A stretch of 64,000 nt of DNA, taken from IMG/VR virus record IMGVR_UViG_3300020021_000004, positions 1-64,000 of that record, one strand, 5' to 3'. Below are positions 34,700 through 53,814 of this stretch, piece after piece. Each line of letters starts with the position of its first letter. Position 1 is the first letter of the stretch. The notes under the pieces were generated by a model. That model saw only the letters and a list, made by a program, of their open reading frames with translations, was not told where the DNA came from and searched no databases. Source of the DNA: a virus. Made by a program: the position numbers and the translations under genes.

Positions 34700-37600
34700 T
34701 CACTCCCACCCGTGCTTGATGACGCGGGGTGGCTGGAACTTCTCGACAGGAGCTGCGTCCTGAACCAAAAAGGGCTGCTCCACGAACTGAAGAGGGGAAC
34801 CGTAGGTCTTTTGGATTTCCCAACGGATGAGCCACTGACCGGGCTGACCCTGCTCACCCGCCAAACCCACCACATAGTATTCACCCACGCCAGGGCCCAC
34901 CACTGCCTTCTTACGACCTCCGACCGGCATCGGGACCCCAGAGGCTGCGATCTGGAAGAACGTGTAATAGACCGCCACAGGGCTGTACATACCCTGTCGA
35001 TCCGCGAGCCGGAGACACAGATCCCTTGCCGTGAGAGTTTGAAGGTACCGGAAGGTCTTGGAAGGTCCGACGGGGGTCGGCTTGGGCTGAACCCCGTTGT
35101 TGTACACACGTACGATGCAGTCGTCGAAGATCTGCACCGCTTCTGCGGGAAGGCGGGTGTAGTTGACCTGAACGAAGAGGGCGTCCGAAACACCCATCAC
35201 GTCCGAAACTGTCCGGCTCTGCTCCTTGTCGACTAGGAGTAGATCCGTCAGATCGAGGCTGTCGATGACCCTGCGGATGTAGTCGGTCGAAGCCTGAAGC
35301 TGATCGGCAACAACCAGAGCGTCCGACAGGTCAATGAAGATCGCGAGCCCGGCCGCTACGTCATCTGTGACGCTGACCGTGTCCTGGACGGTCGCATCCT
35401 TCTCGGTAGAGAGAGTGATCGAGTCCGTGACACTGACGGTGTCTTGGCCTGCACGAATGTAATCGGTCGAAGCTTGGAACTGCTCGGTGACGACCAGAGC
35501 GTCCGAGGCCGACCGGACGTAGCTAACGATCTTCGAGAAACTATCGGTGATGTCGATCGCGTCTTGGACAGCAACCCCGCGTTCAGCAAAGATCTGAACT
35601 TCGTCCGTAACATCAACGACGTCTTGTACGGTTCGAACGTAGTCGGTCGAAGCCCTGAGGGTCTCGGTAATGCTGATCGTGTCCGTAAGATTACGGGCGT
35701 ACTCAGCCACCAGAACCGCCTGGTCCGTAACACTGATGGCATCCGAAACCGTCTTGCGGACTTCAATCGAAATGGCGTCCGTGACCGACACAATGTCGGA
35801 AGCCGTGCGGACGTACTGGCTCGAAGAAGAGAGCTGATCCGCTAGAACCAGGGCATCCTGGAGCCTGCGGATGTAGTCGGTGTTCGGAGAGAGCTGCTCA
35901 ACGACCGTGATCGTGTCGGACCCTGAGCGGCTCAGCTCTCGAGTAACCGCTACACTGTCGGTAACCGAGGCACTATCGGACGCCGCCCGCTCGTAGGTGA
36001 AGCTCGTGGCGGCACTGTCGGCAACAGCAACAGCGTCCGAAGCCGTCTTCGAGTATTGGGTGGACGGAGATAGCTGGTCCGTGATGCTAACAGCGTCAGT
36101 GACCAGGACAGAAAGACCCTGGAAAAGGTCGACCGTCAAAGTCTCGGTGACGCTGATGGTGTCGCTAACGGCACGGGCTATTTCGAACGAAGCACTCGCG
36201 GTGTCGGTGATGCTGACCGAATCCGAAAGGGTGCGGTTGTAGACCGAGCTGATCGATGTCTGGTCAGTGACCGAGACGATGTCCGAAAGGGTGCGGCCGT
36301 ACTCCGCCGCCAAGGTAAGGGTGTCGGTGACGCTGGTTGCGTCAGCCAGCGTCTTGTCGACTTCGACAGAGAGGGCGTCCGTAACGCTGATGGCATCGCT
36401 GACGGTGCGGACCTTCTCCAGGCCCGCAAACACCGCTTCTGTGGTGCTGAAGGTGTCCGAAAGGGTGCGAGAGAAATCTCCATTGAGGGACGTCTGGTCA
36501 GTGACCGAGACCGTATCGGAGACGTTCTTGTGAACCTCAATAGAGGTTGCGTCGGTAACGACGATCGTGTCGTTGACGGCACGCGACACCTCGAAAGAGG
36601 CATTAGCGGTGTCAGAGGTGCTGACAGCGTCCGAGCCCGTACGGGCGTATACCGTCGATAGTGTCGTCTGGTCGGTGACCGAAAGAGTGTCGGAAGCCGA
36701 CCGGTCCTTGTCCTGGCTCGGGATGTCAGTGTCGGTGACCGAGATCGTGTCACTGAGGCTCTTGGAGAACTCCAGGGATGTGACACTTTGGTCAGTAACG
36801 CTGACGGCGTCGCTGACGGTGCGGACCTTCTCCAAGCCCGCGGAGAGGGTTTCGGTGACCGCTATGCTGTCGGAGAACGAACGCCCGTACTCTACCGAAA
36901 GAGCGGTGCTGTCGGTGACGCTGACGCTGTCATTGACTTCCGTCTCTTGTTCGGTAGAAGCCTCGTCGGTAACGCTGACCGTATCACTGAGGGTGCGGTT
37001 GTACTGTGCCGCCAACAGCAGTTGGTCGGTGACCGAAATGGCGTCCTGCGGGAACGCTTTCTCGATAAGGGCCTGATCGGTAGCCGAGAGGACATCCGAA
37101 AGGGTGCGAGAGAACTCGACGGAGCTAACCGTGGAATCTGTGACGCTGATGGCGTCTGACCTGAAGACTTCCTCATCCAGGACCTGGTCGGTGATGCTGA
37201 CCGTGTCCGAGAGGGTGCGAGAGAAATCTGCCGAACGGCTCGTGCTGTCGGTGAGCGAGACGACATCGACCCCGAAGATGGTCTCGACCAACAACTGGTC
37301 GCTGACCGTGACCGAGTCCGAAAGGGCGATGTCGTTGTTGGCGGTCTCCGACTCATCAGTGGTGCTGATGGTGTCCGCAGCACTTCTGGAAATTTCAAGC
37401 GAAAGAGTCGTGCTGTCGGTGACAGAAACAGCATCGTTGACCGTGACGGCTTCGAACGCACTGGTCGTCGCGTCCGACTCATCCGTGGTGCTGACGGTGT
37501 CCGAAAGAGTGCGGCTGTACTGGGCCGCCAACGTGAGAGTGTCGCTGACGCTGACGGCATCCTGTGGGAACGCCTTCTCAGTCAGGGTCTGGTCAGTGGC

Positions 37601-40600
37601 CGAGATCGCATCACTGAGTGTGCGAGAGAACTCGACGGAACTGAAGGCGGAGTCCGTGGCACTGATAGCATCTTGGGGGAAGCTGGTCTCAAGGGTCGCC
37701 TGATCCGTAACGCTGATCGAATCGGTGAGCGTTCGACCATACACCGAAGCCAAGGTGGTTTGGTCGGTGACCGAAACGGCGTCCTGCGGGAAGCTGGTCT
37801 CACGGAAGAGCTGGTCCGTAGCCGAGACCGAGTCACTAGCAGACCGGCTGTACTGAATCGAAAGGGCGGTGCTGTCGGCGACCGAAACAGCGTCTTGGAC
37901 GAACAGGGTTTCGATCAACAACTGGTCGGTGATCGAGATCGAATCGCTGAAGGTGCGGCTGTACTGTGCCGAAAGGGCGGTGCTGTCCGTAACGCTGACG
38001 GCGTCTTGGGGGAAGCTGGTCTCACGGAAGGTCTGATCAGTGATTGCTACGCTATCGGAAACTGACCTACTGTACTGAATCGAAAGGGTTGTGCTATCGG
38101 TGACCGAAACGGCGTCCTGCGGGAAGGCCGTCTCACGAAGTGTCTGGTCCGTAGCCGAGACCGAGTCCGCAAGGGTCCGACCATATTCAGCTGAAGTGCT
38201 GGTGTTGTCGGTGACCGAGACCGTATCCGAAGGGAAGCTGGTCTCACGAAGGATTTGGTCCGTGACCGCCAAGGTGTCGGAGGCGGACCGAACGTAGGAC
38301 GTCTCAGCAGTAAGCTGATCCGTGACAACCACGATGTCGTTAGCAAACGCATCCAGGACTGCGTTGGTGGTGGCTTCAATGTCGTCAGTAAGGGTGATCG
38401 AGTCACTGAGAGTGATCGAATACTGTGCCGAAAGGGTCGTGCTGTCGGTGACCGAGACCGTGTCCGACCCGCTCCTACCGTACTCAGCCGAGGTGCTGGT
38501 GCTGTCGGCGGAGCTGACGCTGTCTTGAGGGAAGCTGGTCTCACGGAGGGTTTGATCCGTGACGGTGATCGAGTCGCTGAGCGACCGTCCGAACACAAAT
38601 GAAGTGCTCGTCGTATCAGTGACGCTGACCGCATCCTGAACGAAACCCGTTTCGATCGTTGTTTGATCGGTGAACGTTACGCTGTCGCTGAGCGACCTGC
38701 TGTACTGGATCGAAAGGGTCGTCTGATCCGTGACACTGAAGGCGTCTTGCGGAAAGACGGTGTCGACCAGCTTCTGGTCAGTGACACTGACGTTGTCCGA
38801 GAGCGTGATCGAGTACTGAAGGGACGTCGTAGCGGTATCGGTGACGCTGACGCTGTCCTGACGGAAAACACTGTCGACCAACAACTGGTCGCTGACCGTG
38901 ACCGAGTCCGCAAGCGTGCGGCCATACTCCACCGAGGTCTTGATCGTATCGCTGACGCTAACAGCGTCTTGGGGGAAGCTGGTCTCACGAAGCGTCTGAT
39001 CAGTGACCGAAACTGCGTCCGAAATGGTGCGGTTGTACTGTGCCGAAAGGGTGATGCTGTCTGTAACGCTGACAGCATCTTGGGGGAAGCTGGTCTCACG
39101 AAGCGTCTGATCAGTGACCGCTACGCTGTCGCTGAGCGACCGGCTGTACTGGGCCGAAACAAGGGTCGAATCCGTAACGTCGATCGCATCAACGTTGAAA
39201 GTGGTCTCGACCAACAACTGGTCGCTGACCGTGACCGAATCACTTAGCGACCTAGAGAAATCTAGGGAGGCGGTGATCGAATCCGTGACAGCTGCGCTAT
39301 CCGAAAGCGTCTTAGCGTACTCTAGGGACGTTGACGGGCTGTCGGTGACCGAGACCGCGTCCGAGAGGCTGACGTCGGTGATGCGGCCTGTGGTGGCCGA
39401 CACATCATCGGCAACCGAAAGACTGTCCGAAAGGCTGCGGCCGTACTCGACCGAAAGAGTTGAACTGTCGGTAACGCTGACGGCATCTTGGGGGAAGCTG
39501 GTCTCACGGAAGGTCTGATCCGCGAGGGTGATCGAATCACTGAGAGTGATCGAGTACTGTGCCGAAAGGGTCGTGCTGTCGGTGACCGAAACAGCGTCTT
39601 GGACGAACAGGGTCTCGACCAACAACTGGTCGCTGACCGCTACACTGTCGCTAAGAGTGCGGTTGTACTGTGCCGAAAGAGTGGTGCTGTCTGTAGTCGA
39701 GACGGCGTCCTGCGGGAAGCTGGTCTCACGAAGGGTCTGGTCAGTGACCGCCAGGGTGTCGCTGAGAGACCGGCTGTACTGAATCGAAAGGGTTGTGCTA
39801 TCGGTGACCGAAACGACGTCCTGCGGGAAGCTAGTCTCGCGGAGGGTCTGGTCAGTGGCCGCTACACTGTCGCTGAGAGTGCGGTTGTAAGCGAAGGCTG
39901 TCGTCGTCGAATCCGTGACATCGATCGCATCAACGTTAAAAGTGGTCTCGATCAGCGTCTGATCAGTGACCGCTACGCTGTCATTGATCGACCGGCTGTA
40001 CTGGATCGAAAGAGTCGTCGAATCCGTGACACTGGCGCTGTCCGAAAGGCTTCGATCAACAGTGATCGCCAACTGGTCGGTGACGCTCGCAGTGTCACTG
40101 AGGGTGCGGTCGTATTGGGCCGAAGTTGCGATCGAATCCGCGACCGCTACGCTGTCCGACAGAGTACGAGCGTAAACCGTCGAGGCTGAGGTGCTGTCAG
40201 TGACGTCGGCCGCATCCGAAACACTGACGTCGGTTGCCGAGGCCAGGCTATCGGTGACGGTGATCGTGTCCGAGAGGCTGATGCTGTACGAGAGCGAAAG
40301 GCTGGTCTGGTCAGTGACCGAAATCGTCTCAGCCGGAGAAATGAGGTCGAAGTCACCCGATGTCGCGACGCTGATGCTATCGCTGAGAGACCTGGAGTAC
40401 TGGATCGAGGTGCTGGTCTGGTCAGTAACGCTGACGCTGTCCTGACGGAAGACCGTTTCGACCAACAGCTGATCGCTGACCGCTATGCTGTCGCTGAGGG
40501 TGCGGTTGTACTGTGCCGAAAGGGTCGTACTATCTGTAGTCGAGACCGTGTCCTGCGGGAAGCTGGTCTCGCGGAGGATCTGATCCGTGACCGCTACGCT

Positions 40601-41362
40601 GTCACTGAGAGACCTGCTGTACTGGACGGACAGCGTGGTGCTGTCCGTGACATCGATCGCATCGATGTTGAAGCTAGTCTCGACCAACAGCTGATCAGTA
40701 ATGGCTACGGTGTCACTGATCGACCTGGAGAAGGTCAGGCTCGGAGCCGCCGAATCGGTGACCGCTGCGGTATCGCTGAGGGTGATCGAGTACTGAAGGG
40801 ACAGCTGAGTGCTGTCCGTGATCGAGGGTGCATCAGAGACACTGATGTCTGCGATCTGGCCCGCAGCAATCGTTAGATCCTCGGTGATGGTTACCGAGTC
40901 GCTGAGGGTGCGGTTGTACTGAGCTGAAGTGCTGGAGCTGTCGGTGACGCTGACCGCATCCTGAGGAAAGGTCGTCTCACGCAGCGTCTGATCAGTAACC
41001 GCTACAGTGTTACTGAGAGTCCGACCATAGACCCAAGAAAGGGTCGTGCTGTCGGTGACCGAGATCGTGTCCGAGACCGACACGTCGATCGCCGACGGGT
41101 GTAGAATCTCGATGACATCACTGTCGGTGATCGAGATTTGATCGCGGGTGAACTCTTCCAGCAGAGCGCTGCTGGTGACCGCTACAGTATCGGAGAGAAC
41201 TAGGCTGTAGACCGCAGCAGTGCGGACGCTGTCACTGATGCTGACATCATCGTCGGTGATCTCCGCAAAGCCCGACGTTGATACTGAGATAGTATCCGAG
41301 ACTTTGATGTCGAGTCGGCTCGCACCATTTGCGAAGAGCAGGAAGGAGCCAAGACCGGCCAT
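34700..41362 (-). CDS. Giant Asp/Thr/Ser-rich repeat fibre protein (2220 aa) with C-terminal Ig-like anchor domain
   Basis: D-x-[VIL]-x-[VIA]-[TS]-D motif repeated throughout; C-terminal ~110 aa aligns by eye with the adaptor N-terminus. Confidence 0.85.
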   Translation of the reverse strand: MAGLGSFLLFANGASRLDIKVSDTISVSTSGFAEITDDDVSISDSVRTAAVYSLVLSDTVAVTSSALLEEFTRDQISITDSDVIEILHPSAIDVSVSDTISVTDSTTLSWVYGRTLSNTVAVTDQTLRETTFPQDAVSVTDSSSTSAQYNRTLSDSVTITEDLTIAAGQIADISVSDAPSITDSTQLSLQYSITLSDTAAVTDSAAPSLTFSRSISDTVAITDQLLVETSFNIDAIDVTDSTTLSVQYSRSLSDSVAVTDQILRETSFPQDTVSTTDSTTLSAQYNRTLSDSIAVSDQLLVETVFRQDSVSVTDQTSTSIQYSRSLSDSISVATSGDFDLISPAETISVTDQTSLSLSYSISLSDTITVTDSLASATDVSVSDAADVTDSTSASTVYARTLSDSVAVADSIATSAQYDRTLSDTASVTDQLAITVDRSLSDSASVTDSTTLSIQYSRSINDSVAVTDQTLIETTFNVDAIDVTDSTTTAFAYNRTLSDSVAATDQTLRETSFPQDVVSVTDSTTLSIQYSRSLSDTLAVTDQTLRETSFPQDAVSTTDSTTLSAQYNRTLSDSVAVSDQLLVETLFVQDAVSVTDSTTLSAQYSITLSDSITLADQTFRETSFPQDAVSVTDSSTLSVEYGRSLSDSLSVADDVSATTGRITDVSLSDAVSVTDSPSTSLEYAKTLSDSAAVTDSITASLDFSRSLSDSVTVSDQLLVETTFNVDAIDVTDSTLVSAQYSRSLSDSVAVTDQTLRETSFPQDAVSVTDSITLSAQYNRTISDAVSVTDQTLRETSFPQDAVSVSDTIKTSVEYGRTLADSVTVSDQLLVDSVFRQDSVSVTDTATTSLQYSITLSDNVSVTDQKLVDTVFPQDAFSVTDQTTLSIQYSRSLSDSVTFTDQTTIETGFVQDAVSVTDTTSTSFVFGRSLSDSITVTDQTLRETSFPQDSVSSADSTSTSAEYGRSGSDTVSVTDSTTLSAQYSITLSDSITLTDDIEATTNAVLDAFANDIVVVTDQLTAETSYVRSASDTLAVTDQILRETSFPSDTVSVTDNTSTSAEYGRTLADSVSATDQTLRETAFPQDAVSVTDSTTLSIQYSRSVSDSVAITDQTFRETSFPQDAVSVTDSTALSAQYSRTFSDSISITDQLLIETLFVQDAVSVADSTALSIQYSRSASDSVSATDQLFRETSFPQDAVSVTDQTTLASVYGRTLTDSISVTDQATLETSFPQDAISATDSAFSSVEFSRTLSDAISATDQTLTEKAFPQDAVSVSDTLTLAAQYSRTLSDTVSTTDESDATTSAFEAVTVNDAVSVTDSTTLSLEISRSAADTISTTDESETANNDIALSDSVTVSDQLLVETIFGVDVVSLTDSTSRSADFSRTLSDTVSITDQVLDEEVFRSDAISVTDSTVSSVEFSRTLSDVLSATDQALIEKAFPQDAISVTDQLLLAAQYNRTLSDTVSVTDEASTEQETEVNDSVSVTDSTALSVEYGRSFSDSIAVTETLSAGLEKVRTVSDAVSVTDQSVTSLEFSKSLSDTISVTDTDIPSQDKDRSASDTLSVTDQTTLSTVYARTGSDAVSTSDTANASFEVSRAVNDTIVVTDATSIEVHKNVSDTVSVTDQTSLNGDFSRTLSDTFSTTEAVFAGLEKVRTVSDAISVTDALSVEVDKTLADATSVTDTLTLAAEYGRTLSDIVSVTDQTSISSVYNRTLSDSVSITDTASASFEIARAVSDTISVTETLTVDLFQGLSVLVTDAVSITDQLSPSTQYSKTASDAVAVADSAATSFTYERAASDSASVTDSVAVTRELSRSGSDTITVVEQLSPNTDYIRRLQDALVLADQLSSSSQYVRTASDIVSVTDAISIEVRKTVSDAISVTDQAVLVAEYARNLTDTISITETLRASTDYVRTVQDVVDVTDEVQIFAERGVAVQDAIDITDSFSKIVSYVRSASDALVVTEQFQASTDYIRAGQDTVSVTDSITLSTEKDATVQDTVSVTDDVAAGLAIFIDLSDALVVADQLQASTDYIRRVIDSLDLTDLLLVDKEQSRTVSDVMGVSDALFVQVNYTRLPAEAVQIFDDCIVRVYNNGVQPKPTPVGPSKTFRYLQTLTARDLCLRLADRQGMYSPVAVYYTFFQIAASGVPMPVGGRKKAVVGPGVGEYYVVGLAGEQGQPGQWLIRWEIQKTYGSPLQFVEQPFLVQDAAPVEKFQPPRVIKHGWE
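35150..41320 (-). repeat. Degenerate intragenic tandem repeats (17+20 aa, 111-bp super-unit in the core)
   Basis: e.g. DSVAVTDQTLRETSFPQ / DAVSVTDSTTLSAQYSRSLS; recurrent DNA gggaagctggtctcacg. Confidence 0.9.
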
Positions 41363-41463: not shown

Positions 41464-41721
41464 TTACTGAGTGAACGCCGTGACCTGGTAGTACTGACTT
41501 GAGGTCAAGTTGTTGAAGATGGGCTTGATATCCGCGTCCAAGTCAAAGGCTTCAGTCAATTTGATCCAAAGCAGGGGTTCCGTAGTGATGTTCAGAAGGA
41601 CTTCGGAAACATTTCCGTTGTAATCCAACGTGTACATGAGCACAGGAATTTCGTAACCACCCGCATCTAAAGCAGAGAGCAAGGACGTAGCTTGAGCAGC
41701 GTTAACCACAACCTTGATCAT
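41464..41721 (-). CDS. Small hypothetical protein
   Basis: 85 aa, ATGA-coupled to the upstream gene. Confidence 0.65.
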   Translation of the reverse strand: MIKVVVNAAQATSLLSALDAGGYEIPVLMYTLDYNGNVSEVLLNITTEPLLWIKLTEAFDLDADIKPIFNNLTSSQYYQVTAFTQ

Positions 41722-42353: not shown

Positions 42354-42384
42354 TTTTACTTCTTCCCTTTAGAGACTTTGAAAA

Positions 42385-43023: not shown

Positions 43024-43032
43024 TTTGCTTCC

Positions 43033-44555: not shown

Positions 44556-44580
44556 GAGGATCCTTGAAGACGTGGGGCCA

Positions 44581-46002: not shown

Positions 46003-46005
46003 CGT

Positions 46006-48072
46006 TCAATCCAAAAAGGTATGGGACTTGTAGGAGAACCGAAGGTACACGGTGGAGCTTGTTTCAGTATCCGTAATAGCTGGGGTGTCGGTCCCCGCAT
46101 CCACGTCGTAGAGGGTCCCTGAAGATGCAGGGGCTAACGCGATATGGAACCCTACGACGCCGAACCCTGTTGCGGGTCTTGCGAAGGTACCTGTAGCCGA
46201 CGGAACCACAGCCGCTGTCCCCTGTCCGTTGTCCGCAACGCAAATGATGTCCCAACCGCTCGTGTCAGCGAACGCTACACGTTCGACGTATCCCGAAGGT
46301 GGTACGAAATCAACGGTCGTGGGGGTGGAGGTTCCCGGATCTGCAACCCCCACCCAAACGATCTGACATCCGTTAGCTGTAGTGGTCAGGGTGGGGGCTA
46401 TGACGCTAGCGGGAGTCGCACGGTCATCGTCATGTGTTTCTGAGACAGGCGTCACTTGAAGAGGCGTCGTAGGGTGAACGCCAGACCACGCGGAGATCAC
46501 GAGCCCTTGGTTCAAGGTGATGCCAGGAGTGAAGATATAGCTCCCGCTCCCGACTGCCGATTTCTTGTACCAAACGTAGTAAGTGGCTCCATCAGTGATC
46601 GTCAACGAGGCATTGAAGATCTGTGTCCACGTCCCATCGGGCGGGCTGCATGTCTGTCCGCCGCCGTCACATTCCCAAACTGCTAGGAGGAAGTCCCCTG
46701 CCTGCCCAGGGTCCACTGCACTGATGGTGGCCCCGCTCAAAGAGCTAGCGGTCGAGGACGCTCGATAATTAATGGTCGCAGGATTCAGGGCCGCCATGAT
46801 GACGATCCACGTATCGGCACCCCCCGTGCTCGTCACATAGTTGCCAGTCGAACCAGAGCTAACTAGGGCACCATCGTAGTAGCCTGAAAACCCGCTGTCG
46901 AGATTCAGAAACGAGGTGCCGTCCACTCTGGAAATAAGAGATCCCGCACTCCCTGAAGGAGCAGCCGTCAAAGCATTGTCGTCCCCAAACCATCCGTAAA
47001 CCAAGTATTCTTTGGCTTTGGCAGCTGAGAACCCTGTGCCGGTAACGGTTGAGTTGGCACCCCCACTGTTGTTGACCGAAAAATTATCAAACGGAGTCGT
47101 GTTGTTGACGCCCGAATAGGCACAGATGATAACGTCGATGTTGCCCGCCGTACCCGTGGCGGTAAATGTGTAGCTGGAAGACTCTGACGCCCCCGCTACT
47201 TTGTACATCATCGCGCAATTGAGGTCTGACCCGCCAGGTCCGCCGCGCTCTGAAGTCGCGGCCAGAACAGTCCACCCTGTAGACGCCCACAAGCTGACGA
47301 AAGCAGAGTTGTAGTTACCTAACCACGCAACCAAGACATCGCCCGCAACAACCTCCGTAGGTTTGTTGCACACGCCACTTGAAGCCGAGACAGTGGCGGC
47401 ACCGCGGATCTCGATCCGCGAGACCAACATATTGGGCTCGTCGGTGCTGATCGTTAGCGTTGTGCCCGTGACGGTCCAGTTCTGAGCCGCCGCCGACTGG
47501 TCATGCCCGATCGTGTGTCCCGCATCGCACTGAAGATAGTTGGTCAACCCAGTGGTGACGATCGGAGCATTCTGCTGGCTCTCAGCAAAGATCTGGTCAG
47601 GCGTTAACGCCGCAGACGTCGACCACTCCTTGTAGGCCGTGAATCGCTTATGATTGGTGGACCCACCCCCTGTTCCAACTAAAAAGAACTGATTGACAGT
47701 ACTAATGTTCGTGTCTGAAACATTAGATGTGTGGAGGAAATTCTCACCCTCATGACGCCAGTAGGCGGTGACACCAACGCCGTTCACGGCGACCGTGCAC
47801 ACGAAAATCCACGTTGAGTCAGAACCCGTGCTAACGATTTGTAGATTGCCCCCCTGAGTGTTCACACAGGTGTCGGTGATAACAGGGATACCGCTGCCTG
47901 CGATGTCACCGATGCTGTACGACCAGTCGTCCCCGTTACCTACCGCGTACAGGGCAGGATCCCCACCATCAACGAACTCGAAGTACCTCACCCAAAAACA
48001 AGAGGTGACGCCAAGTGTGCCAGAATTCCGATTAAGTTCGGTGTTGCCTCCAGAGGTGGTTTCGTAGCTCAT
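46006..48072 (-). CDS. Three-domain lectin-like virion protein with C-terminal fibre-repeat tag
   Basis: Shared N-terminal domain plus two AGDxLxA...GWT...SGV..TTP domains; C-terminal LYDVDAGTDTPAITD. Confidence 0.7.
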   Translation of the reverse strand: MSYETTSGGNTELNRNSGTLGVTSCFWVRYFEFVDGGDPALYAVGNGDDWSYSIGDIAGSGIPVITDTCVNTQGGNLQIVSTGSDSTWIFVCTVAVNGVGVTAYWRHEGENFLHTSNVSDTNISTVNQFFLVGTGGGSTNHKRFTAYKEWSTSAALTPDQIFAESQQNAPIVTTGLTNYLQCDAGHTIGHDQSAAAQNWTVTGTTLTISTDEPNMLVSRIEIRGAATVSASSGVCNKPTEVVAGDVLVAWLGNYNSAFVSLWASTGWTVLAATSERGGPGGSDLNCAMMYKVAGASESSSYTFTATGTAGNIDVIICAYSGVNNTTPFDNFSVNNSGGANSTVTGTGFSAAKAKEYLVYGWFGDDNALTAAPSGSAGSLISRVDGTSFLNLDSGFSGYYDGALVSSGSTGNYVTSTGGADTWIVIMAALNPATINYRASSTASSLSGATISAVDPGQAGDFLLAVWECDGGGQTCSPPDGTWTQIFNASLTITDGATYYVWYKKSAVGSGSYIFTPGITLNQGLVISAWSGVHPTTPLQVTPVSETHDDDRATPASVIAPTLTTTANGCQIVWVGVADPGTSTPTTVDFVPPSGYVERVAFADTSGWDIICVADNGQGTAAVVPSATGTFARPATGFGVVGFHIALAPASSGTLYDVDAGTDTPAITDTETSSTVYLRFSYKSHTFLD

Positions 48073-48247
48073 AGGTCCCGATCCGCGTAGGCTCCTCTAC
48101 CTCTGAGGTGTCAAAAGAAACTTAGTCGAGGAAAGGTCCTGTTTTACCGGGCAGGAAGATATCGAAGGAGGGCCTATTGGTTCCCGCAGTGATCGAATCC
48201 GTAACAGCTGGGGTGTCGGTCCCCGCATCCACATCGTAGAGGGTCCC
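46069..48247. repeat. Dispersed 51-bp direct repeat (49/51 identical) encoding the C-terminal tag
   Basis: 46069-46119 versus 48197-48247. Confidence 0.9.
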
Positions 48248-48949
48248 CGCTGTGATTGTAGGAATCGACAACACCCACGCCATCACTCCACCAGCATCGG
48301 CCCCCGTCAACGGCGTGGACGTGATGTTCAGGGTAATGGTGCCCGTAGGACTCCCCGTAGCGGGAGCATCCATCGACAGCATGGCCAAAGAGCTGTACTC
48401 AGCAGTGCCTCCTGCGGCTCCTGACAACACGGCCCTCTGAGTAAACCCTGTGGCCGAGAACGTGAAGTCCTTGGAATTGTCGACAGCATCCAACGCGACG
48501 AAAATGAAGACCTGATCGCCGCTCGCTGTATTACAGCCGTTCAATGAAGCGGTCGTGTTGGTGACGTGATTTGTACCTAAGTTAGTGTGCTGAACGTCCG
48601 TGATCGTGGTGTCGTCCAACCCTGCCCACGTGAACAGAAGCAAGACCGTGGACGGGAAGGACTGCGAACTCGTCGTGAACGAATAGGTGCTGGGCAGGCC
48701 CGACGCCGGAGTACCGGCCCCACCGTTGCCCGTGTATTTGAAAATGCCTGCACTATTGTTGTCGAAACTACAGGTCTGGTAGCTATCAACAAGGGTGAAG
48801 TCACTTGGGATCGTCAGAGGGACGTTGACCTCGTCCGCGTTGTAGAACGCCCACAGGCGGTCTCCCAAGGCATATGTAGGCGTAGTCCCTGTAACGGTGA
48901 GGGTCCCTCCTGCGTTGGGATCTATGGTGGCGTCCCTAAACCCCGTCAT
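48122..48949 (-). CDS. Single beta-domain virion protein with C-terminal fibre-repeat tag
   Basis: Domain related to the repeated domains of 46006-48072; C-terminal LYDVDAGTDTPAVTD. Confidence 0.7.
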   Translation of the reverse strand: MTGFRDATIDPNAGGTLTVTGTTPTYALGDRLWAFYNADEVNVPLTIPSDFTLVDSYQTCSFDNNSAGIFKYTGNGGAGTPASGLPSTYSFTTSSQSFPSTVLLLFTWAGLDDTTITDVQHTNLGTNHVTNTTASLNGCNTASGDQVFIFVALDAVDNSKDFTFSATGFTQRAVLSGAAGGTAEYSSLAMLSMDAPATGSPTGTITLNITSTPLTGADAGGVMAWVLSIPTITAGTLYDVDAGTDTPAVTDSITAGTNRPSFDIFLPGKTGPFLD

Positions 48950-49064: not shown

Positions 49065-50075
49065 TTAGCTAGCGTTCTGTAGCCGCCGACGGGCCTCTAG
49101 GTGCACTTCCATGAAGGAGACGCCGAATCGGTCACGGAGCCACTCGATCATGACCGCCTCTTCGACCGAATGCTGACCGTTGTGACACTTCACACACAAC
49201 CTTTCCAGGTTGGCGGGGTTGTTGTTCCAAGGGTTGCGATCCTTGTGGTTGATGTGCTTCCCGACCTCCCTGCACACCACACACGGACCTGGGGCTACGA
49301 GACGGCGGGCACGACCGTACATAACCTGTGACGTAACGGCATCACCTGTAACCCTCGGGCGTCCTCGGCCATCCGTGAAACCCTTGCCCACCAGGTCTGG
49401 AGATAACTCGACCCGCTTGATCCCAAGTCGATCTAAAGCCTGTTGAACAGTTCTCGCAGCACACCCCGCCATTCGACCAACTTCAGCCTTAGACTTCCAT
49501 TGGGTCACGTACTGCTCGGTCAACCACTCCTTGTTATGAAGGGTCTCTAGGAACTTAGCCCTAGGACGAGGAGCGTTGGACCCGTACTTGCGAAGTACAC
49601 TGTGAGCCCGTGTGGCACTTTCACTACGTTTCGCAGGGTCGGATTCGTAGGTAGCGTGACCCGTGTGTGTCTCTACGGCTCGCTGTTTTTGAAGACAACC
49701 GCACGACTTAGCGCCACCCGTCTTTAGCGCTTGAGCGCTAATCGCCTTCTCATTGCCGCAATCGCAATGGCACCACCACCAAGCGGACCTCGTGGTCTGT
49801 TCCGTCAGCTCCCGAGTTAAGGGTGCTTCGGACCGTCGTAACACTTCCAAGCGACCAAACCGTTGGCCCGTGAGATCCTCTGCTTGACCTATCAAGCAGC
49901 CACAGGACTTCGTATGGCCAGACCTAAGCAAGGACCCTCGAACGATGTGCTCGGGCTTACCGCACGCTGAACAAAAGCAAACCCACCGAGCCTCTCCGCC
50001 CGGTGGGTACGCCGCTTCTCGAATCACCGTCAACGAACCGAATACCTGCCCAGTTAGGTCGATTTTCCTGCTCAT
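49065..50075 (-). CDS. HNH homing endonuclease with duplicated DLTGQxFG.L...CxC...KSCGC DNA-binding modules
   Basis: Two such modules; C-terminal CVVC...INHKDRNPWNN...NLERLCVKCH. Confidence 0.88.
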   Translation of the reverse strand: MSRKIDLTGQVFGSLTVIREAAYPPGGEARWVCFCSACGKPEHIVRGSLLRSGHTKSCGCLIGQAEDLTGQRFGRLEVLRRSEAPLTRELTEQTTRSAWWWCHCDCGNEKAISAQALKTGGAKSCGCLQKQRAVETHTGHATYESDPAKRSESATRAHSVLRKYGSNAPRPRAKFLETLHNKEWLTEQYVTQWKSKAEVGRMAGCAARTVQQALDRLGIKRVELSPDLVGKGFTDGRGRPRVTGDAVTSQVMYGRARRLVAPGPCVVCREVGKHINHKDRNPWNNNPANLERLCVKCHNGQHSVEEAVMIEWLRDRFGVSFMEVHLEARRRLQNAS

Positions 50076-50123
50076 TTCCAGAGCATATCGAATTCTAACT
50101 CGACTGTCAACAGTCCGATAACT

Positions 50124-50630
50124 TCAGGTTACGCGAGCCCTGTAGGTTATTCGTAGCTTGTCTGCCGTGGTCTTGTTGACGGCCGTGAAAGTGCTGCGGC
50201 TCAACGCACTGCCACCCGGCGACGTGTGCTGGTTCATGACCACCACTTCGCGGATGTTGGTAGCCGACTTGGTGCCGCCGCCCGACTGATACGACACCAC
50301 CCACTGGAAGGTACGAGTACCCGACAGAAGGGTGATGGTGTCAGCAGTGCGGAGCGTGCCCGTCACGGGGCTGACCACGTTGGTCTGTGCAGAGTTCGCC
50401 GCAACACCGGACGTACCGATGCGGAGGAACTTGAACAGACTCGTGTTCAGACCAGTGGCTTTGCGCCAGATCTGCTTCTTGCCGGTGTTGACCACCAGGT
50501 TGGGGATTGTACGACGTTGCACAACCTCAGGACCGTTCTTCCCGTCTCGGAGCACCTCGACGACGAAAACGCCCTGGGCTTGCAGCTCGTCAGACAGCCC
50601 CTGCTCGTTCTGAATGTCCTTGGCCTGCAT
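50124..50630 (-). CDS. Tail-collar/fibre N-terminal-like structural protein
   Basis: Likely start MQAKDI at 50630 after GGAGGAG; NLVVNTG...IGTSG...IREVVVMN...RSTF..VNKT...L.ITY resembles fibre attachment domains. Confidence 0.65.
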   Translation of the reverse strand: MQAKDIQNEQGLSDELQAQGVFVVEVLRDGKNGPEVVQRRTIPNLVVNTGKKQIWRKATGLNTSLFKFLRIGTSGVAANSAQTNVVSPVTGTLRTADTITLLSGTRTFQWVVSYQSGGGTKSATNIREVVVMNQHTSPGGSALSRSTFTAVNKTTADKLRITYRARVT

Positions 50631-52446
50631 TGCTAATTGACTCCTCCAACAGTGAGATGTTGGTTTTGGCTTCCTCAAACACGTCGGATTCGGCGTTGTC
50701 TGGAAGCAGCTCCAGCACCTTACGCGCCCAATAAAGAGAATCTTCGAACCGACCCAACTCTCCGTGAACCATGGCCAGCCGTTGTGCTGGGATCCATGAG
50801 TACATGGGGAGGTCCACCCACCACAGGGTGAAGGGCGGCTCTCCAACTTTAGTCCCCGCATAAGTATACCATTGGAGGGCCTCTTCGAACTTGTCCTCCC
50901 GGAACGCCAAGTCCCCTAGCCGAACCCAATGTTCAGTCCGGCTCCAATCGTCCCCGACCGCCCCTAAAAGGATGTCTCGAGCGCTGATCCAATCAGCCGC
51001 TTTCTGCTCTTCCGTTCGAGGTGGGGTAGTGGGATCCGAAGCCCTTTGGCTGTACAGCTTCGAGAGGATGAGGCGCGTGTGGTACCGCATGGGCCCGTTC
51101 TTCTTTGGGACCCTCAGGTACTCTTCCAACCGTTCGATCGCCTTATCGTTCGAGTGTTCACGCCATTCTGAGCCCAAATAGTGGAGCGACATGGCGTTGC
51201 CGTTGTGGACCCAGTCGTCCATCAACGTCACACGGTTCTGAGTCTTTCTCTGAACGTGACGAGCCATTTCACGGTCGATAGCTCGCTCGTGAAGGGTGCG
51301 GACCTGCGGCAGGTTGATGGCGTAGGTGCCGGTCGGGTAGTCCAGAATGTTGTGCGTCTGACGGGCGTACCGGATGCGCGAGTCTTGTTTGCACAGCCAA
51401 GGGAAAGCCCACTGCTGATCGTTGCCCGTACGGAGGACGAATCCAAGCTTCGTCTGCGGGGGCATCTGGTCCAGCGAAAGCAGGGCTTCCCACCCTGAAA
51501 CCAACCGCTCATGGCCCTCCGTCATGAAGATCCACTCTGAAGTGCACTTGTCCATGCACTGGTTGCGGATCCACCCGAAATGAACTCCACCCTCAGGGGT
51601 TTCGTCACCCTTGGGGCCTTCAGGGTCCTTCAAAAAGAACACCACTTCAGCGTACTTTTCGGCAATTTCCCAGGTGTTGTCGGTCGTCCGAGGATCGACA
51701 CCAATGACGATTTCATCCGCCACCGCTCGGAAACTTGCAAGGGTGGCCTCGAGGTCCGCCCCCTCATCACGACAAGGCATCGTCACCGACAGGGTGAAGC
51801 CTTTTTCCCAACCGCAAACCCCCAAAAGGTACGGTCCAAGCACTTCGATCCGTACGTGTTCGAAGTGCTGTTGCAAGTCCCTCTTGAAGGACATGGCGTT
51901 GTACTTCACCGTGTGCTGGGGCTCTTCATCAGGTCCCAAGCGATCGTTGGGTACCGAGAACAAGGCTCGCCCACGCTTGGCAGCGTGCTTGAACAACCGA
52001 TGGCGGGTCTCCGCACTCAGGTGCTCGACCACCTCAGTGGCGATGCAAACATCCAAGGGACGATCGAGAACTCGATCGAGGTCCGCATCGCTCTCCAAAT
52101 CGGCGATGGCGGTCTCGAGTCCTAGTTCTCGCGCCTTCTCGAGAGCGGCCTCGCTGTGGTCCACCACAAGAGGCTCGACCTTCTTGGTGACCTTCAGACG
52201 CTCAGCCAAGATACCGGTGCCACCCCCAAGATCGACGATCTTGGACCCCGGGGTGAGAATGCGCTCGATGCGAGTGTAGACCTGGCTCAGAGCCTGCTTT
52301 CGCCACTCCTCTTGCCCCTCTTCCTTCCAGAGGCGATTCCAAAGGTCGGGGCTATTGGCAAGACGTGCTTGCCGCTCAGCTGCCTCTTCTTCTTTGGTCT
52401 TGGTCTTAGCTTCGTCGACTAGTTCCACAGCCTGAGTAGCTTCCAT
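50590..52446 (-). CDS. Class I SAM methyltransferase - GT2 glycosyltransferase - TPR fusion
   Basis: VDLGGGTG and TEVVEHL (MTase); SVTMPCRDE...DEIVIGVD..TTDNT...FGWIRN...EWIFMTEGHE (GT-A fold); C-terminal TPR-like helices. Confidence 0.85.
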   Translation of the reverse strand: MEATQAVELVDEAKTKTKEEEAAERQARLANSPDLWNRLWKEEGQEEWRKQALSQVYTRIERILTPGSKIVDLGGGTGILAERLKVTKKVEPLVVDHSEAALEKARELGLETAIADLESDADLDRVLDRPLDVCIATEVVEHLSAETRHRLFKHAAKRGRALFSVPNDRLGPDEEPQHTVKYNAMSFKRDLQQHFEHVRIEVLGPYLLGVCGWEKGFTLSVTMPCRDEGADLEATLASFRAVADEIVIGVDPRTTDNTWEIAEKYAEVVFFLKDPEGPKGDETPEGGVHFGWIRNQCMDKCTSEWIFMTEGHERLVSGWEALLSLDQMPPQTKLGFVLRTGNDQQWAFPWLCKQDSRIRYARQTHNILDYPTGTYAINLPQVRTLHERAIDREMARHVQRKTQNRVTLMDDWVHNGNAMSLHYLGSEWREHSNDKAIERLEEYLRVPKKNGPMRYHTRLILSKLYSQRASDPTTPPRTEEQKAADWISARDILLGAVGDDWSRTEHWVRLGDLAFREDKFEEALQWYTYAGTKVGEPPFTLWWVDLPMYSWIPAQRLAMVHGELGRFEDSLYWARKVLELLPDNAESDVFEEAKTNISLLEESISNAGQGHSERAGAV

Positions 52447-52474
52447 TCATTTCCTCTGATTTCTGGGTTTTCAT

Positions 52475-53023
52475 TTAGCCTCCCTGTTTACGGGGAGGAT
52501 TGGGATCCACAACAAAGTGTTCGGTCTGTACTGGGGCCGTCTTGGGCAGCACCTGTGCACGAGCGGGCATGCCCGCAGGAATGACAGCGACCTGCTTCTT
52601 CAACAACACCGCCCGTAGGTCCGCCGACCCATCCAGGGTAGCCATCAAGATCGAGTCGGTGCCCTTCCACGTGTGGATCGTGTCAGCCGTCCCCACGAGG
52701 TCCGAGAGTGCTTTGGCATACGACGTCTGAAGACTCACCTGATCAGCCGCCGCCATGCTGTCACCGAGCGTCGCCCAGCGTACGAAACCCGTAGAGGCTA
52801 CGTCACTCGCGGCTACCGCATCCGAAACCGCGATCCCAAAGCCCTTCGAGATCAAGATGCTGTCGCTGATGTTGACGGTGTCGGTGTTGAAGGATGTCTC
52901 CACGAACATGGAGTCCCCCATCACGATGAGGTCTTGGAGGCTGTATTGGTACGACATCGCCAAGGCAATGGCATCCGCAGAGACCGAGAAGGAGTCGTTG
53001 ACGACCGTGTCCAATAGAGCCAT
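52475..53023 (-). CDS. Short fibre-repeat protein related to the 2220-aa protein
   Basis: DSFSVSAD, DTVNISD, DAVAASD repeats and ETSFN segment. Confidence 0.7.
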   Translation of the reverse strand: MALLDTVVNDSFSVSADAIALAMSYQYSLQDLIVMGDSMFVETSFNTDTVNISDSILISKGFGIAVSDAVAASDVASTGFVRWATLGDSMAAADQVSLQTSYAKALSDLVGTADTIHTWKGTDSILMATLDGSADLRAVLLKKQVAVIPAGMPARAQVLPKTAPVQTEHFVVDPNPPRKQGG

Positions 53024-53035
53024 AGCGCGCCTCCT

Positions 53036-53422
53036 TTAGGTGCAGAAACCCGCCGTCAAGCCAGACTCGACAGCAAGGGGAAGGTTCACGACATCGAAGT
53101 CGATCCCGACGATTTGAGACGTCCCAGGATAGTTGATCAGCAGGTTCCAATGCCCAAGAGAGTTGGGAAAGAACCGAAGGCCATAGCCCTGATTGGGCAG
53201 CGCATCCCAGTAGACGGAGCCCGACACCACTTGGGCATCTGACACCACCGAGCCGTCGAGAAGGGGCCACGCCACGACGGTGTTGTTCAGGAACAACGTC
53301 AACGTCACGTCAGCGGGCACCACTCCAGCAATTCGGGTGTACTGGTTGGCCGAAAAGAGGTCCACCTGATCGTAGATCAGCTGGTTGATCTGCACTAAGC
53401 GCGTTCGAAAAGTGGCCGCCAT
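53036..53422 (-). CDS. Small Ig-like structural protein
   Basis: 128 aa all-beta; YGLRFFPNSLGHWNLLINY. Confidence 0.6.
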   Translation of the reverse strand: MAATFRTRLVQINQLIYDQVDLFSANQYTRIAGVVPADVTLTLFLNNTVVAWPLLDGSVVSDAQVVSGSVYWDALPNQGYGLRFFPNSLGHWNLLINYPGTSQIVGIDFDVVNLPLAVESGLTAGFCT

Positions 53423-53427
53423 GAGGC

Positions 53428-53814
53428 TCAGCTTTCCGTGATCGAGAAGTACCCGATTGGGAAAAAGAGGGCGTCCTCCGCATACACGGTCTTCGGCGTC
53501 CCCAAGGTACCGAAGTACAGCATGTTGCCTGCCGTCAAGGCGTCGAACACCGCTACTCCAGGGACGTCACCCCAATCCAGCGTCGGGGTTGGGTAAGTGA
53601 TGACGTTGGTGTTGTGGCTCTCGCCCGCCGAAGACGCAGAGAACACTGCTGCTCGGCGTATGTAGGACCCACCCGTCACTTCAGTGCCGCCGCCGGCACT
53701 CGTGGGCGTCACGTTGAATAACGCGACGTACCAGGCGGACGGAGGCGTGAACGTCACACCCCGAAGGACGTGGTTCGCCAAAGCGTTTCGCAGGTAGTCG
53801 GTTTTGTTCATCAT
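53428..53814 (-). CDS. Conserved phage fibre-associated structural protein
   Basis: DYLRNALANHVL...YVALF...GGGTEVTGGSY.R...WG.V..VAVFDALTAGNML.FG.L, a widespread phage structural family. Confidence 0.75.
   Translation of the reverse strand: MMNKTDYLRNALANHVLRGVTFTPPSAWYVALFNVTPTSAGGGTEVTGGSYIRRAAVFSASSAGESHNTNVITYPTPTLDWGDVPGVAVFDALTAGNMLYFGTLGTPKTVYAEDALFFPIGYFSITES

What the first reader, a model, noticed from the sequence alone, without database searches (positions are those of the whole stretch)
34700..53814. Candidate new system: modular 'plug-in' adhesin fibre with a repeat scaffold, tagged lectin-like subunits and a dedicated modifying enzyme
Seen: four adjacent genes (43755-48949) are combinatorial domain shuffles (A; A+B; A+C+C; C). 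Each ends in one or two copies of the giant fibre's repeat unit (YDRTLSTDTIALTD, YDIDAGTDAQAVTD, YDVDAGTDTPAITD, YDVDAGTDTPAVTD; compare fibre YDRTLSDTASVTD) and a short aromatic terminus (SFD, RMF, FLD, FLD). Two tags are 49/51 identical in DNA. A 182-aa mini-repeat protein, collar-like proteins and an MTase-GT2-TPR enzyme are in the same cluster. Inference: the tag lets interchangeable receptor- or glycan-binding heads add onto the repeat filament by beta-strand complementation, giving a branched multi-specific fibre, and the shared tag DNA acts as a recombination point for swapping heads.
Basis: partly seen in the sequence, partly recalled or inferred. Interest (0 to 1): 0.82.

Follow-up and report, generated by a model that had tools for sequence, protein, structure and literature searches.

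The report
Beads-on-a-rope fibre with lectin heads
A fragment of a very large phage genome encodes a 'beads-on-a-rope' fibre, a design solved only recently in small phages, here with a 2,220-residue rope; four sugar-binding-type proteins end in a short piece of the same rope, which most likely recruits the small bead protein rather than sticking to the giant fibre itself.

Summary
The sequence features are real. Three of the four genes share an N-terminal domain. All four end in a repeat-like tag. Two tags are 49/51 identical in DNA. The giant protein is about 110 units of 17 or 20 residues.

53428-53814 is a confident member of the GP4 gp80 'Fiber I' bead family (Pfam PF23140, E 2e-40; PDB 8JOU, E 2e-10). 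In published cryo-EM structures, dimers of such beads are threaded on a repeat 'rope' whose strands complete the bead sandwiches.

Related viral contigs keep the order bead / small protein / mini-rope / ... / giant rope / adaptor. Relatives with two bead genes have two short, dissimilar ropes. Those with one bead gene have two ropes of one repeat type.

I therefore read the giant protein and the 182-aa protein as ropes. I read the tags (36-54 aa; 37 aa in one, the length of one 17+20 unit pair) as minimal rope pieces that bind a bead dimer.

The heads have a LamG/ConA-like fold. Binding itself is inferred, not shown. Direct tag-to-scaffold binding and a branched fibre are unsupported.

This is a new variant of a known kind. 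Unpublished notes of this scan report giant ropes and LamG-headed ropes on other DNA.

The parts
53428..53814 (-). Bead protein (128 aa), GP4 gp80 'Fiber I' family
   Evidence: Pfam PF23140: E 2e-40, 138.5 bits against a cut-off of 27. PDB 8JOU chain a: E 2e-10. It is the only copy in the 86-kb record.
53036..53422 (-). Conserved 128-aa protein between bead and mini-rope; possibly a collar or anchor partner, fold unknown
   Evidence: Kept in the same position in L004, L006 and L007, and after rope 1 in L008 and L005. No Pfam hit and no PDB hit. hhalign against the bead family was negative.
52475..53023 (-). Mini-rope (182 aa): about six 17-21-aa units followed by a conserved 65-aa C-terminal tail
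   Evidence: E 8e-18 against the giant's repeats. Homologues differ by 20-21-aa indels. AF2 on this protein alone gave pLDDT 30.6 and pTM 0.15.
50590..52446 (-). Methyltransferase + GT2 glycosyltransferase + TPR fusion
   Evidence: Pfam Methyltransf_23 (E 9.7e-9), Glycos_transf_2 (E 3e-7) and TPR_2 (E 1.1e-6). Found at 66-71% identity in 3 of 5 related records.
50124..50630 (-). Conserved 168-aa protein of unknown role
   Evidence: Orthologues in L004, L006 and L007 have a near-identical C-terminus. No Pfam hit. hhalign against the bead family was negative.
49065..50075 (-). HNH endonuclease inside the cluster (mobile element, not a fibre part)
   Evidence: phrog_374, E 6.8e-36.
48122..48949 (-). 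g275: globular head of an unnamed viral family plus a 41-aa tag (48125-48247; 51-nt identity island at 48197-48247)
46006..48072 (-). g688: LamG-like domain A, two related middle domains and a 37-aa tag (46009-46119; identity island at 46069-46119)
   Evidence: phrog_3329 matches residues 226-317.
44581..46002 (-). g473: LamG-like domain A, one middle domain and a 36-aa tag (44584-44691)
43755..44555 (-). g266: LamG-like domain A and a 54-aa tag of three units (43758-43919)
   Evidence: AF2 model: pLDDT 57, pTM 0.62, tag region below 50. VIA-align Z 14.0 to LamG-like and pentraxin folds. Coordinates checked.
41464..43677 (-). Four genes of unknown role (214, 212, 211 and 85 aa); the 212- and 211-aa proteins are 73% identical
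   Evidence: They are not present at this position in L004, L006 or L007.
34700..41362 (-). Giant rope (2,220 aa). Residues 1 to about 2060 are about 110 units, with a 37-aa period in residues 1-1300 and a 20-aa period in 1300-2080. The C-terminal 140-aa domain (34703-35122) is a paralogue of the adaptor's N-terminal domain
   Evidence: Orthologues with the same C-terminal domain are 1,378 aa in L007 and 268 and 258 aa in L008 and L005.
33765..34664 (-). Adaptor-like protein (299 aa) whose N-terminal 105 aa resemble the giant's C-terminal domain
   Evidence: 26% identity over 105 aa, E 3.4e-5. Multi-sequence alignment. Weak phrog_17327 'head-tail connector' hit, E 0.0048.

Best explanation
The cluster builds 'chain-like' (beads-on-a-rope) virion fibres of the GP4 / Bas63 / A1002 type.

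1. The 128-aa gp80-family protein (53428-53814) forms dimers. Each monomer has an incomplete beta-sandwich with a groove.
2. The repeat units of the 182-aa protein and of the 2,220-aa protein are rope segments. They run through those grooves and complete the sandwiches, one unit per monomer. One 17+20-residue pair (37 aa) would hold one dimer, so the giant rope would carry roughly 55 dimers.
3. The giant rope is anchored by its C-terminal domain next to the homologous N-terminal domain of the adaptor-like protein, that is, at the neck, as the rope-bearing collar protein of Bas63 is.
4. The four head proteins (three LamG-like, one other) end in a minimal rope of two or three units. Each would bind one bead dimer, or one and a half, and form a short lectin-headed beaded fibre. 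The tag is an address for the bead, not for the giant filament.
5. The 51-nt identity island, exactly one unit, is a recent gene-conversion tract between two paralogues.

Shown: bead family membership, repeat anatomy, synteny, covariation of bead number with repeat type, and the LamG-like fold.
Inferred: every binding step, the stoichiometry, the neck location and the role of the glycosyltransferase.
For: - BEAD. PF23140 E 2e-40; 8JOU chain a E 2e-10.
- PUBLISHED MECHANISM. [quoted passage not shown] The collar is an N-terminal rope plus an Ig-like domain (PMC12609058 section 9). In A1002, 11 dimers each form an augmented beta-sheet with the rope. In GP4, five dimers sit on a separately encoded rope (PMC13730344 section 11).
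- SYNTENY. L004, L006 and L007 keep the order bead / 129-aa protein / mini-rope / MTase-GT2-TPR / 168-aa-like protein / variable genes / giant rope / adaptor.
- ORTHOLOGY. In L008 and L005 each of two bead genes is followed, directly (rope 1 in both; rope 2 in L008) or after about 650 nt (rope 2 in L005), by a short rope. The second rope (268 and 258 aa) carries the same C-terminal domain as the giant.
- COVARIATION. Records with one bead gene have two ropes of one repeat type: E 3e-18, 6e-13, 5e-19 and 9e-17. Records with two bead genes have dissimilar ropes: E 7e-4 and no hit.
- UNIT-WISE LENGTH CHANGE. Mini-rope homologues differ by 20-21-aa indels.
- PERIODICITY. A 19-21-aa period beats shuffles in proteins next to bead genes of unrelated phages. 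Numbers of 500 shuffles that reached the observed value: Gervaise 0, L008 rope 1 0, Lietuvens 0, L005 rope 1 1, phiM5 9. Controls gave 242-387.
- NO SELF-FOLD PREDICTED. The mini-rope alone gave pLDDT 30.6, and the g266 tag was below 50.
- TAGS AS ROPE. Tag lengths are 37, 36, 41 and 54 aa against the giant's 37-aa period. LamG homologues elsewhere carry 0 to about 20 such units: P0066 has IDVDAGTDTPAVSD plus further units, P0030 has about 16 units, and P0011 has about 20 units of another type.
Against: - No binding was tested. The structure tool folds single chains only, so no bead-rope or bead-tag complex could be predicted.
- Two of the four tags do not score against the repeat HMM (E 14 and 70).
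- None of the 5 related viral records has a LamG-A gene. The heads are therefore not a core part of the system, though those records are 9-62% complete.
- The rope has no sequence match in the PDB. The GP4-type protein I took for the rope (Gervaise, 325 aa) is not in the PDB by sequence either, so my 'one unit per monomer' count rests on the Bas63 text alone.
- The periodicity test is marginal for the mini-rope (24 of 500) and fails for rope 2 of L008 and L005 (138 and 170 of 500).
- The low AF2 confidence may only reflect a 5-sequence alignment.
- In 3 of the 6 GenBank phage neighbourhoods I read (CcrPW, BUDD, Mvi-JY20) I saw no rope next to the bead gene.
- One bead gene would have to supply over a thousand copies per virion if twelve giant ropes were fully coated.
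Confidence: 0.55

Rival explanations
1. The tag strands add directly onto the giant repeat filament by beta-strand complementation between tag and scaffold, giving a branched fibre with many heads.
For: Tags and scaffold share the motif, which occurs nowhere else in the record. Strand addition is the docking principle in this fibre family.
Against: In the solved systems the repeat units are strand donors and the bead sandwich is the acceptor, so two donors have no obvious way to complement each other. The model ignores the gp80-family gene in the cluster. The rope alone is not predicted to fold into a filament that could accept strands.
Confidence: 0.07
2. Bead-bridged plug-in. One monomer of a bead dimer holds a unit of the giant rope and the other monomer holds a head protein's tag, so heads are clipped onto the giant chain through shared beads.
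For: Each monomer has its own groove. Tags and giant units are of one repeat type and there is a single bead gene.
Against: The regular 17/20 alternation with a 37-aa period fits both grooves of a dimer being filled by consecutive units of one rope, as described for Bas63. No relative that I could fetch carries both features.
Confidence: 0.12
3. The giant protein is a self-standing acidic Ser/Thr-rich beta-repeat adhesin, perhaps glycosylated by the adjacent enzyme. Only the 182-aa protein is a rope. The tags are relics of recombination with the giant gene and have no docking role.
For: The composition (S+T 33%, D+E 15%) differs from the Ala/Gly-rich ropes next to GP4-type beads. The MTase-GT2-TPR gene co-occurs with the Ser/Thr-rich repeat type in 3 of 3 such relatives and in 0 of 2 of the other type. 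There is no Pfam or PDB match for the giant protein.
Against: The short orthologues of the giant protein, with the same C-terminal domain, follow a bead gene of their own, directly in L008 and after about 650 nt in L005. The giant and the mini-rope share their repeats. The tag peptide is conserved in a distant LamG homologue, where further units follow it (P0066).
Confidence: 0.15
4. The four genes are fragments of one degraded fibre gene.
For: They are adjacent and share domains.
Against: Three begin with the family's conserved N-terminus MSY, as do many of the homologues I fetched. Each has its own ATG, most with a Shine-Dalgarno-like stretch upstream. Each ends at a unit boundary. P0002 is a full-length 267-aa counterpart of g266 in another sample.
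Confidence: 0.02

Closest known systems
Fiber I of Ralstonia podophage GP4 (gp80 dimers on a separately encoded rope, with an Ig-like fibre-tail adaptor; PDB 8JOU; Zheng et al. 2023, J Mol Biol 435:168258). The paper is not held and is known to me only through PMC12609058 and PMC13730344.
   Same: The bead protein belongs to the same Pfam family. There is a separately encoded small rope right beside the bead gene, and a small conserved protein next to both.
   Different: GP4 has five dimers. Here the second rope has about 110 units. The repeat chemistry is Ser/Thr/Asp-rich rather than Ala/Gly-rich. The host phage is estimated at about 480 kb (18% CheckV completeness for 86 kb), not a 60-kb podophage. 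Extra head proteins carry rope tags.
Collar-whisker complex of Escherichia myophage Bas63 (PMC12609058, section 9 read in full)
   Same: The rope is the N-terminal extension of a protein whose C-terminal globular domain sits at the neck beside the adaptor. The giant protein has this N-terminal rope plus C-terminal domain layout, and its domain is a paralogue of the adaptor-like protein's N-terminal domain.
   Different: Bas63 has two dimers per collar protein. Its whisker is a structural homologue, not a sequence homologue, of gp80. I have not shown the fold or location of the giant's C-terminal domain.
Chain-like fibre of Pseudomonas podophage A1002 (PMC13730344; abstract and sections 9 and 11 read)
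   Same: Many dimers on one rope by beta-sheet augmentation. Two bead proteins on one rope parallels the two-bead relatives L008 and L005.
   Different: It has 11 dimers, the longest chain among the three (GP4, VP1, A1002) that paper compares. Its rope is part of a nozzle protein. No lectin heads or tags are described.
Concanavalin A-like / LamG lectin domains (Pfam Laminin_G_3), as in PAPP-A, pentraxins and phage tailspike accessory domains
   Same: The fold of domain A: Z 14.0, 13.7 and 12.8 over about 170-190 residues. Foldseek also puts LamG, pentraxin and CBM40 at the top, at E about 1e-3.
   Different: The window's own proteins give no Pfam hit. Sugar binding is not shown. The C-terminal rope tag is not part of that family.

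Membership tests
Chain-like (rope-and-bead) phage fibre, GP4 Fiber I type | A bead protein of the gp80 family | tested here: met
   PF23140 E 2e-40, 138.5 bits against a cut-off of 27. 8JOU chain a E 2e-10.
Chain-like (rope-and-bead) phage fibre, GP4 Fiber I type | A rope: a polypeptide with serial short docking segments, encoded near the bead gene | tested here: met
   At sequence level only. The 182-aa repeat protein lies 405 nt downstream of the bead gene. The giant protein has 37-aa and 20-aa periods. Synteny holds in 5 of 6 distinct IMG/VR loci.
Chain-like (rope-and-bead) phage fibre, GP4 Fiber I type | Bead dimers bound to the rope by beta-sheet augmentation | not testable with these tools
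   Only single-chain prediction is on offer. Indirect support: the rope alone gives pLDDT 30.6.
Chain-like (rope-and-bead) phage fibre, GP4 Fiber I type | An Ig-like collar or adaptor domain that anchors the rope to the virion | tested here: inconclusive
   The giant's C-terminal domain is homologous to the adaptor-like protein's N-terminal domain (E 3.4e-5; alignment). Its fold was not determined. hhalign to the GP4-type 93-aa protein was negative.
Concanavalin A-like lectin / LamG (Pfam Laminin_G_3) | Jelly-roll fold of the LamG / pentraxin type | tested here: met
   VIA-align Z 14.0 (8hgh_A), 13.7 (4dqa_A) and 12.8 (7zl1_B). The model has only pLDDT 57 and pTM 0.62.
Concanavalin A-like lectin / LamG (Pfam Laminin_G_3) | A score above Pfam's gathering threshold | tested here: not met
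   No hit for g266, g473 or g688. Among homologues, P0066 passes (35.2 against 27.6 bits) while P0030 (27.2) and P0036 (24.2) fall just below. I therefore call the domain LamG-like in fold, not a Pfam member.
Concanavalin A-like lectin / LamG (Pfam Laminin_G_3) | Carbohydrate binding | not testable with these tools
GT2 glycosyltransferase | Pfam Glycos_transf_2 above its threshold | tested here: met
   31 bits against a cut-off of 23.3, residues 220-309.
GT2 glycosyltransferase | A catalytic DxD motif and an identified acceptor | not tested
   I did not examine the motif. An earlier first-reader note calls it atypical.

The most novel reading that the evidence does not exclude
The rope unit pair is a portable address. 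Any protein that ends, or begins, with one 37-aa unit pair is clamped by a bead dimer and so built into, or onto the ends of, the giant bead chain. A phage of about 480 kb would then carry neck fibres of the order of 150 nm that display exchangeable lectin heads. The one-unit DNA identity island would be the junction at which heads are swapped. The number of rope units would set fibre length like a ruler. The adjacent methyltransferase-glycosyltransferase would decorate the exposed Ser/Thr face.
Probability: 0.15. Interest if true: 0.85.

Novelty: new variant of a known kind. Interest (0 to 1): 0.6.

Why it matters
Rope-and-bead fibres were first seen by cryo-EM in 2023. In the papers I could read, the solved examples have 2 to 11 dimers.

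Here the same parts list appears with a rope of about 110 units, in a lineage of very large uncultured phages. Lectin-type heads carry a minimal piece of rope. If the tags do bind the bead, three things follow:

- Fibre length would be read straight from a repeat count.
- Heads could be exchanged at a defined peptide and DNA junction.
- A large class of unannotated phage repeat proteins and 'hypothetical' 130-aa proteins would get a structural role.

The claim is directly testable by co-expressing three small proteins.

Tried and rejected
1. A SECOND BEAD PROTEIN. I suspected by eye that the 168-aa protein (50124-50630) or the 128-aa protein (53036-53422) was a second bead. hhalign gave 0.1% probability for each, and a 3-sequence bead HMM found only 53428-53814 in the record. 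I dropped the idea.

2. 'B IS A DIVERGENT C'. BLAST without composition correction suggested this (E 4e-9). With correction, and in leave-one-out hhalign, g473's and g275's domains do not match. The earlier alignments ran into the shared tag. I leave it open.

3. GP4-TYPE COLLAR. The 128-aa protein and the giant's C-terminal domain, compared with the GP4-type 93-aa protein, gave no signal.

4. ROPE OR ANCHOR IN THE PDB BY SEQUENCE. Nothing relevant was found.

5. GENOMIC CONTEXT OF TAG-BEARING RELATIVES (P0002, P0030, P0036, P0066, P0157).
- Scans of viral contigs found none.
- The metagenome scan gave one 1,866-nt contig.
- The genome-contig scan gave none.
- A degenerate DNA pattern for the tag peptide gave none.
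- A protein search with the 44-residue tag region returned only the query.
- So co-occurrence of tags with beads outside this record could not be tested.

6. LITERATURE. Three full-text searches found only PMC12609058 and PMC13730344 on rope-and-bead fibres. I saw no paper on ropes of this length or on lectin heads with rope tags. The library lacks most subscription journals, including the GP4 paper. Of PMC11972413 I saw only a reference-list passage. I did not open any supplementary files, and these may hold rope sequences and unit counts.

7. DIVERSITY-GENERATING RETROELEMENT. I considered this reading of the 51-nt island but did not test it. I made no search for a reverse transcriptase.
Full report
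WHAT IS THERE

All genes of the region lie on the minus strand of a virus record of 86,248 nt. The window is its first 64,000 nt. CheckV rates the record 18% complete, which implies a genome of roughly 480 kb.

In order of transcription the genes are:
- a 128-aa protein (53428-53814)
- a second 128-aa protein (53036-53422)
- a 182-aa repeat protein (52475-53023)
- a methyltransferase-GT2-TPR fusion (50590-52446)
- a 168-aa protein (50124-50630)
- an HNH endonuclease
- the four genes of the finding: g275, g688, g473 and g266
- four genes of unknown role (214, 212, 211 and 85 aa)
- the 2,220-aa repeat protein (34700-41362)
- a 299-aa adaptor-like protein (33765-34664)

CHECKING THE OBSERVATION

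Domain A, about 212 aa, is shared by g266, g473 and g688 at 36-41% identity. The quoted tag peptides are correct.

The g275 and g688 tags are 49/51 identical in DNA. The island is sharply bounded: ungapped identity is 18/60 and 20/60 upstream and 13/60 downstream. It covers exactly 17 codons. No third copy exists in the record.

A motif that captures the repeat occurs in the giant protein (32 times), the 182-aa protein and the four genes, and nowhere else among 1,142 six-frame ORFs.

Statistically the resemblance of the tags to the repeat is modest. A 37-aa profile of the giant's unit pairs ranks g473 (E 0.0048) and g266 (E 0.035) directly after the two repeat proteins. g688 and g275 do not score.

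The domain bookkeeping 'A; A+B; A+C+C; C' is only partly right. The two middle domains of g688 are related to each other and to that of homologue P0004. g275 and the middle domain of g473 are not significantly related to them after composition correction. My first, uncorrected hits included the tag.

THE GIANT PROTEIN

Residues 1 to about 2060 are repeats. A 20-residue unit and a 17-residue unit alternate, giving a 37-aa period in residues 1-1300 (identity autocorrelation 0.417). A 20-aa period holds in residues 1300-2080. At DNA level there are 111-nt arrays of 67-83% match.

The repeat region is 33% Ser+Thr and 15% Asp+Glu. Pfam finds nothing in it. The last 140 residues are not repeats and resemble the N-terminal 105 residues of the adaptor-like protein (E 3.4e-5; alignment with four relatives).

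THE KEY GENE

The protein at 53428-53814 is a clear member of Pfam PF23140, 'Podophage GP4 fiber I protein gp80' (E 2e-40). It matches chain a of PDB 8JOU (E 2e-10).

Two papers that I could read describe what such proteins do.

[quoted passage not shown] The collar protein is an N-terminal rope plus an Ig-like domain at the neck. The authors call the arrangement homologous to GP4's separately encoded rope and Fiber-1.

In A1002 (PMC13730344, sections 9 and 11), eleven dimers of two bead proteins each form an augmented beta-sheet with a rope about 300 Å long. GP4 has five dimers on its rope.

The GP4 paper itself is not held.

COMPARATIVE EVIDENCE

tblastn with the bead finds 96 phage records. 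A scan of IMG/VR returned ten loci, six of them distinct.

L004, L006 and L007 keep the order of the window: bead, 129-aa protein, mini-rope, MTase-GT2-TPR, 168-aa-like protein, one or two variable genes, giant repeat protein, adaptor. The L007 giant is 1,378 aa with the same C-terminal domain.

L008 and L005 have two bead genes, each followed by a short rope, directly or (rope 2 of L005) after about 650 nt. The second rope (268 and 258 aa, about six units) carries the same C-terminal domain as the giant protein and is followed by the adaptor. So the giant protein is the orthologue of a short rope, expanded from 268 to 1,378 to 2,220 aa.

Bead number covaries with repeat type. Records with one bead gene (the window, L007, L004, L006) have two ropes that resemble each other (E 3e-18 to 6e-13). 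The two records with two bead genes have ropes that do not (E 7e-4; no hit). The sample is small, and L004 and L006 are close kin.

Mini-rope homologues differ by indels of 20-21 residues, one unit at a time.

A period of 19-21 residues beats 500 shuffles in proteins next to bead genes of unrelated phages: Gervaise 0, Lietuvens 0, L008 rope 1 0, L005 rope 1 1 and phiM5 9 shuffles reaching the observed value. It is marginal for the mini-rope (24). It fails for rope 2 of L008 and L005 (138 and 170), whose strongest lags were 42-47.

In three further phages (CcrPW, BUDD, Mvi-JY20) I saw no rope next to the bead gene.

Folded alone, the mini-rope gives no confident structure (pLDDT 30.6, pTM 0.15, 5-sequence alignment).

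THE HEADS AND THEIR TAGS

The model of g266 (pLDDT 57, pTM 0.62) matches LamG-like and pentraxin folds (Z 14.0, 13.7 and 12.8). Foldseek agrees at E about 1e-3.

A profile of domain A finds 224 representatives at E 1e-3 or better among 1.84 billion proteins. Most are 220-240 aa: the domain plus a short hydrophobic tail.

Of the 149 non-window proteins I inspected, four carry Ser/Thr-Asp-type rope units after the domain:
- P0002, a full counterpart of g266
- P0036, with one unit and an ending ...LFLD
- P0066, with IDVDAGTDTPAVSD followed by further units and an ending ...YFID
- P0030, with about 16 units

One more, P0011, carries about 20 units of an Ala-rich type.

So a LamG head followed by 0 to about 20 rope units is a natural series, and the tags here are its short end.

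Read against the giant's units, each tag begins with a 17-type unit. Compare GTLYDVDAGTDTPAITD with QTLRETSFPQDAVSVTD. It continues with a 20-type unit that ends the protein. Compare TETSSTVYLRFSYKSHTFLD with STTLSAQYSRSLSDSVAVTD. The HMM aligns g473 in this register.

The tag lengths are 37, 36, 41 and 54 residues, and the giant's period is 37. The tag region of the g266 model is below pLDDT 50.

None of five related viral records has a domain-A gene. The head cassette is therefore an accessory of this lineage. Those records are fragments.

MECHANISM PROPOSED

Bead dimers are threaded on the ropes, one unit per monomer. The giant rope would hold roughly 55 dimers. It would hang from the neck by its C-terminal domain, beside the homologous domain of the adaptor.

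Each head protein binds one bead dimer through its tag. g266 would bind one and a half. How the head-bead units join the virion is unknown. The aromatic ends (FLD, SFD, RMF) and the invariant N-terminus MSY are candidates.

The island of identity, exactly one unit, is best explained by recent gene conversion between g275 and g688.

The MTase-GT2-TPR gene is present in the three relatives with Ser/Thr-rich ropes and absent from the two with Ala/Gly-rich ropes. That fits, but does not show, glycosylation of the rope or its beads.

All binding steps are inference. The rival readings are listed with their tests.

COMPARISON AND NOVELTY

[quoted passage not shown] The membership features I could test at sequence level are met. 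Physical docking could not be tested.

The differences are the size of the rope (about 110 units, against 4 to 22 in solved examples, if one unit serves one monomer), its chemistry, the very large phage, and the rope-tagged lectin heads.

Three literature searches found nothing on these differences.

Unpublished notes of this scan describe giant ropes (3,006-3,207 aa), LamG-headed ropes and a rope-tagged enzyme on other DNA. I read them after reaching my reading. I have not checked them, and they are not independent evidence.

Noticed in passing
window 27806-28819 (-): A 337-aa protein of the Volactin actin family (Pfam PF25216, E 9.7e-76) sits inside the structural gene block. Sporosarcina phage Lietuvens, which also has a bead gene, has an annotated actin-like protein.
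   Followed up: partly
window 28851-29507 (-): A ferritin/Dps-like protein (Pfam Ferritin, E 6e-8) lies next to the actin-like gene.
   Followed up: no
window 49065-50075 (-); L007:9300-10001: An HNH endonuclease gene sits inside the fibre cluster (phrog_374, E 6.8e-36). In relative L007 an HNH-like gene sits at a different place, just before the bead gene. This suggests mobile insertions in this module.
   Followed up: no
window 41718-43023 (-): Two tandem paralogues (211 and 212 aa, 73% identical) belong to an unnamed family of viral proteins of about 211-226 aa (Atlas). Their role is unknown.
   Followed up: partly
window 50124-50630 (-): A 168-aa protein overlaps the end of the MTase-GT2-TPR gene by 41 nt. 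Its last 45 or so residues are almost identical in L004, L006 and L007, which is unusually strong conservation for this module.
   Followed up: partly
L005:7702-9177; L008:13069-15323: The adaptor homologues of two relatives are interrupted. In L005 the protein is 490 aa instead of 299, with an insertion that looks like an intein by eye. In L008 the two halves are separate ORFs with an unrelated ORF between them.
   Followed up: no
G003 (record of L007), C1:51099-52895: The MTase-GT2-TPR orthologue matches across one in-frame TGA.
   Followed up: no
L002:8403-9326 (Sporosarcina phage Lietuvens): The DUF2313 baseplate protein next to the bead gene has an N-terminal stretch with a 20-aa period (0 of 500 shuffles reach it). 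This may be a rope fused to a baseplate protein.
   Followed up: partly
window 18049-21471 and 21563-25828 (-): A 1,140-aa UvrD-type helicase (E 1.4e-42) lies directly beside a 1,421-aa protein with a weak DUF2460-like N-terminus, among virion genes.
   Followed up: no
whole record: Proteins of the window are on record on a contig of 404,268 nt in the protein collection. A much longer assembly of this phage therefore exists.
   Followed up: no
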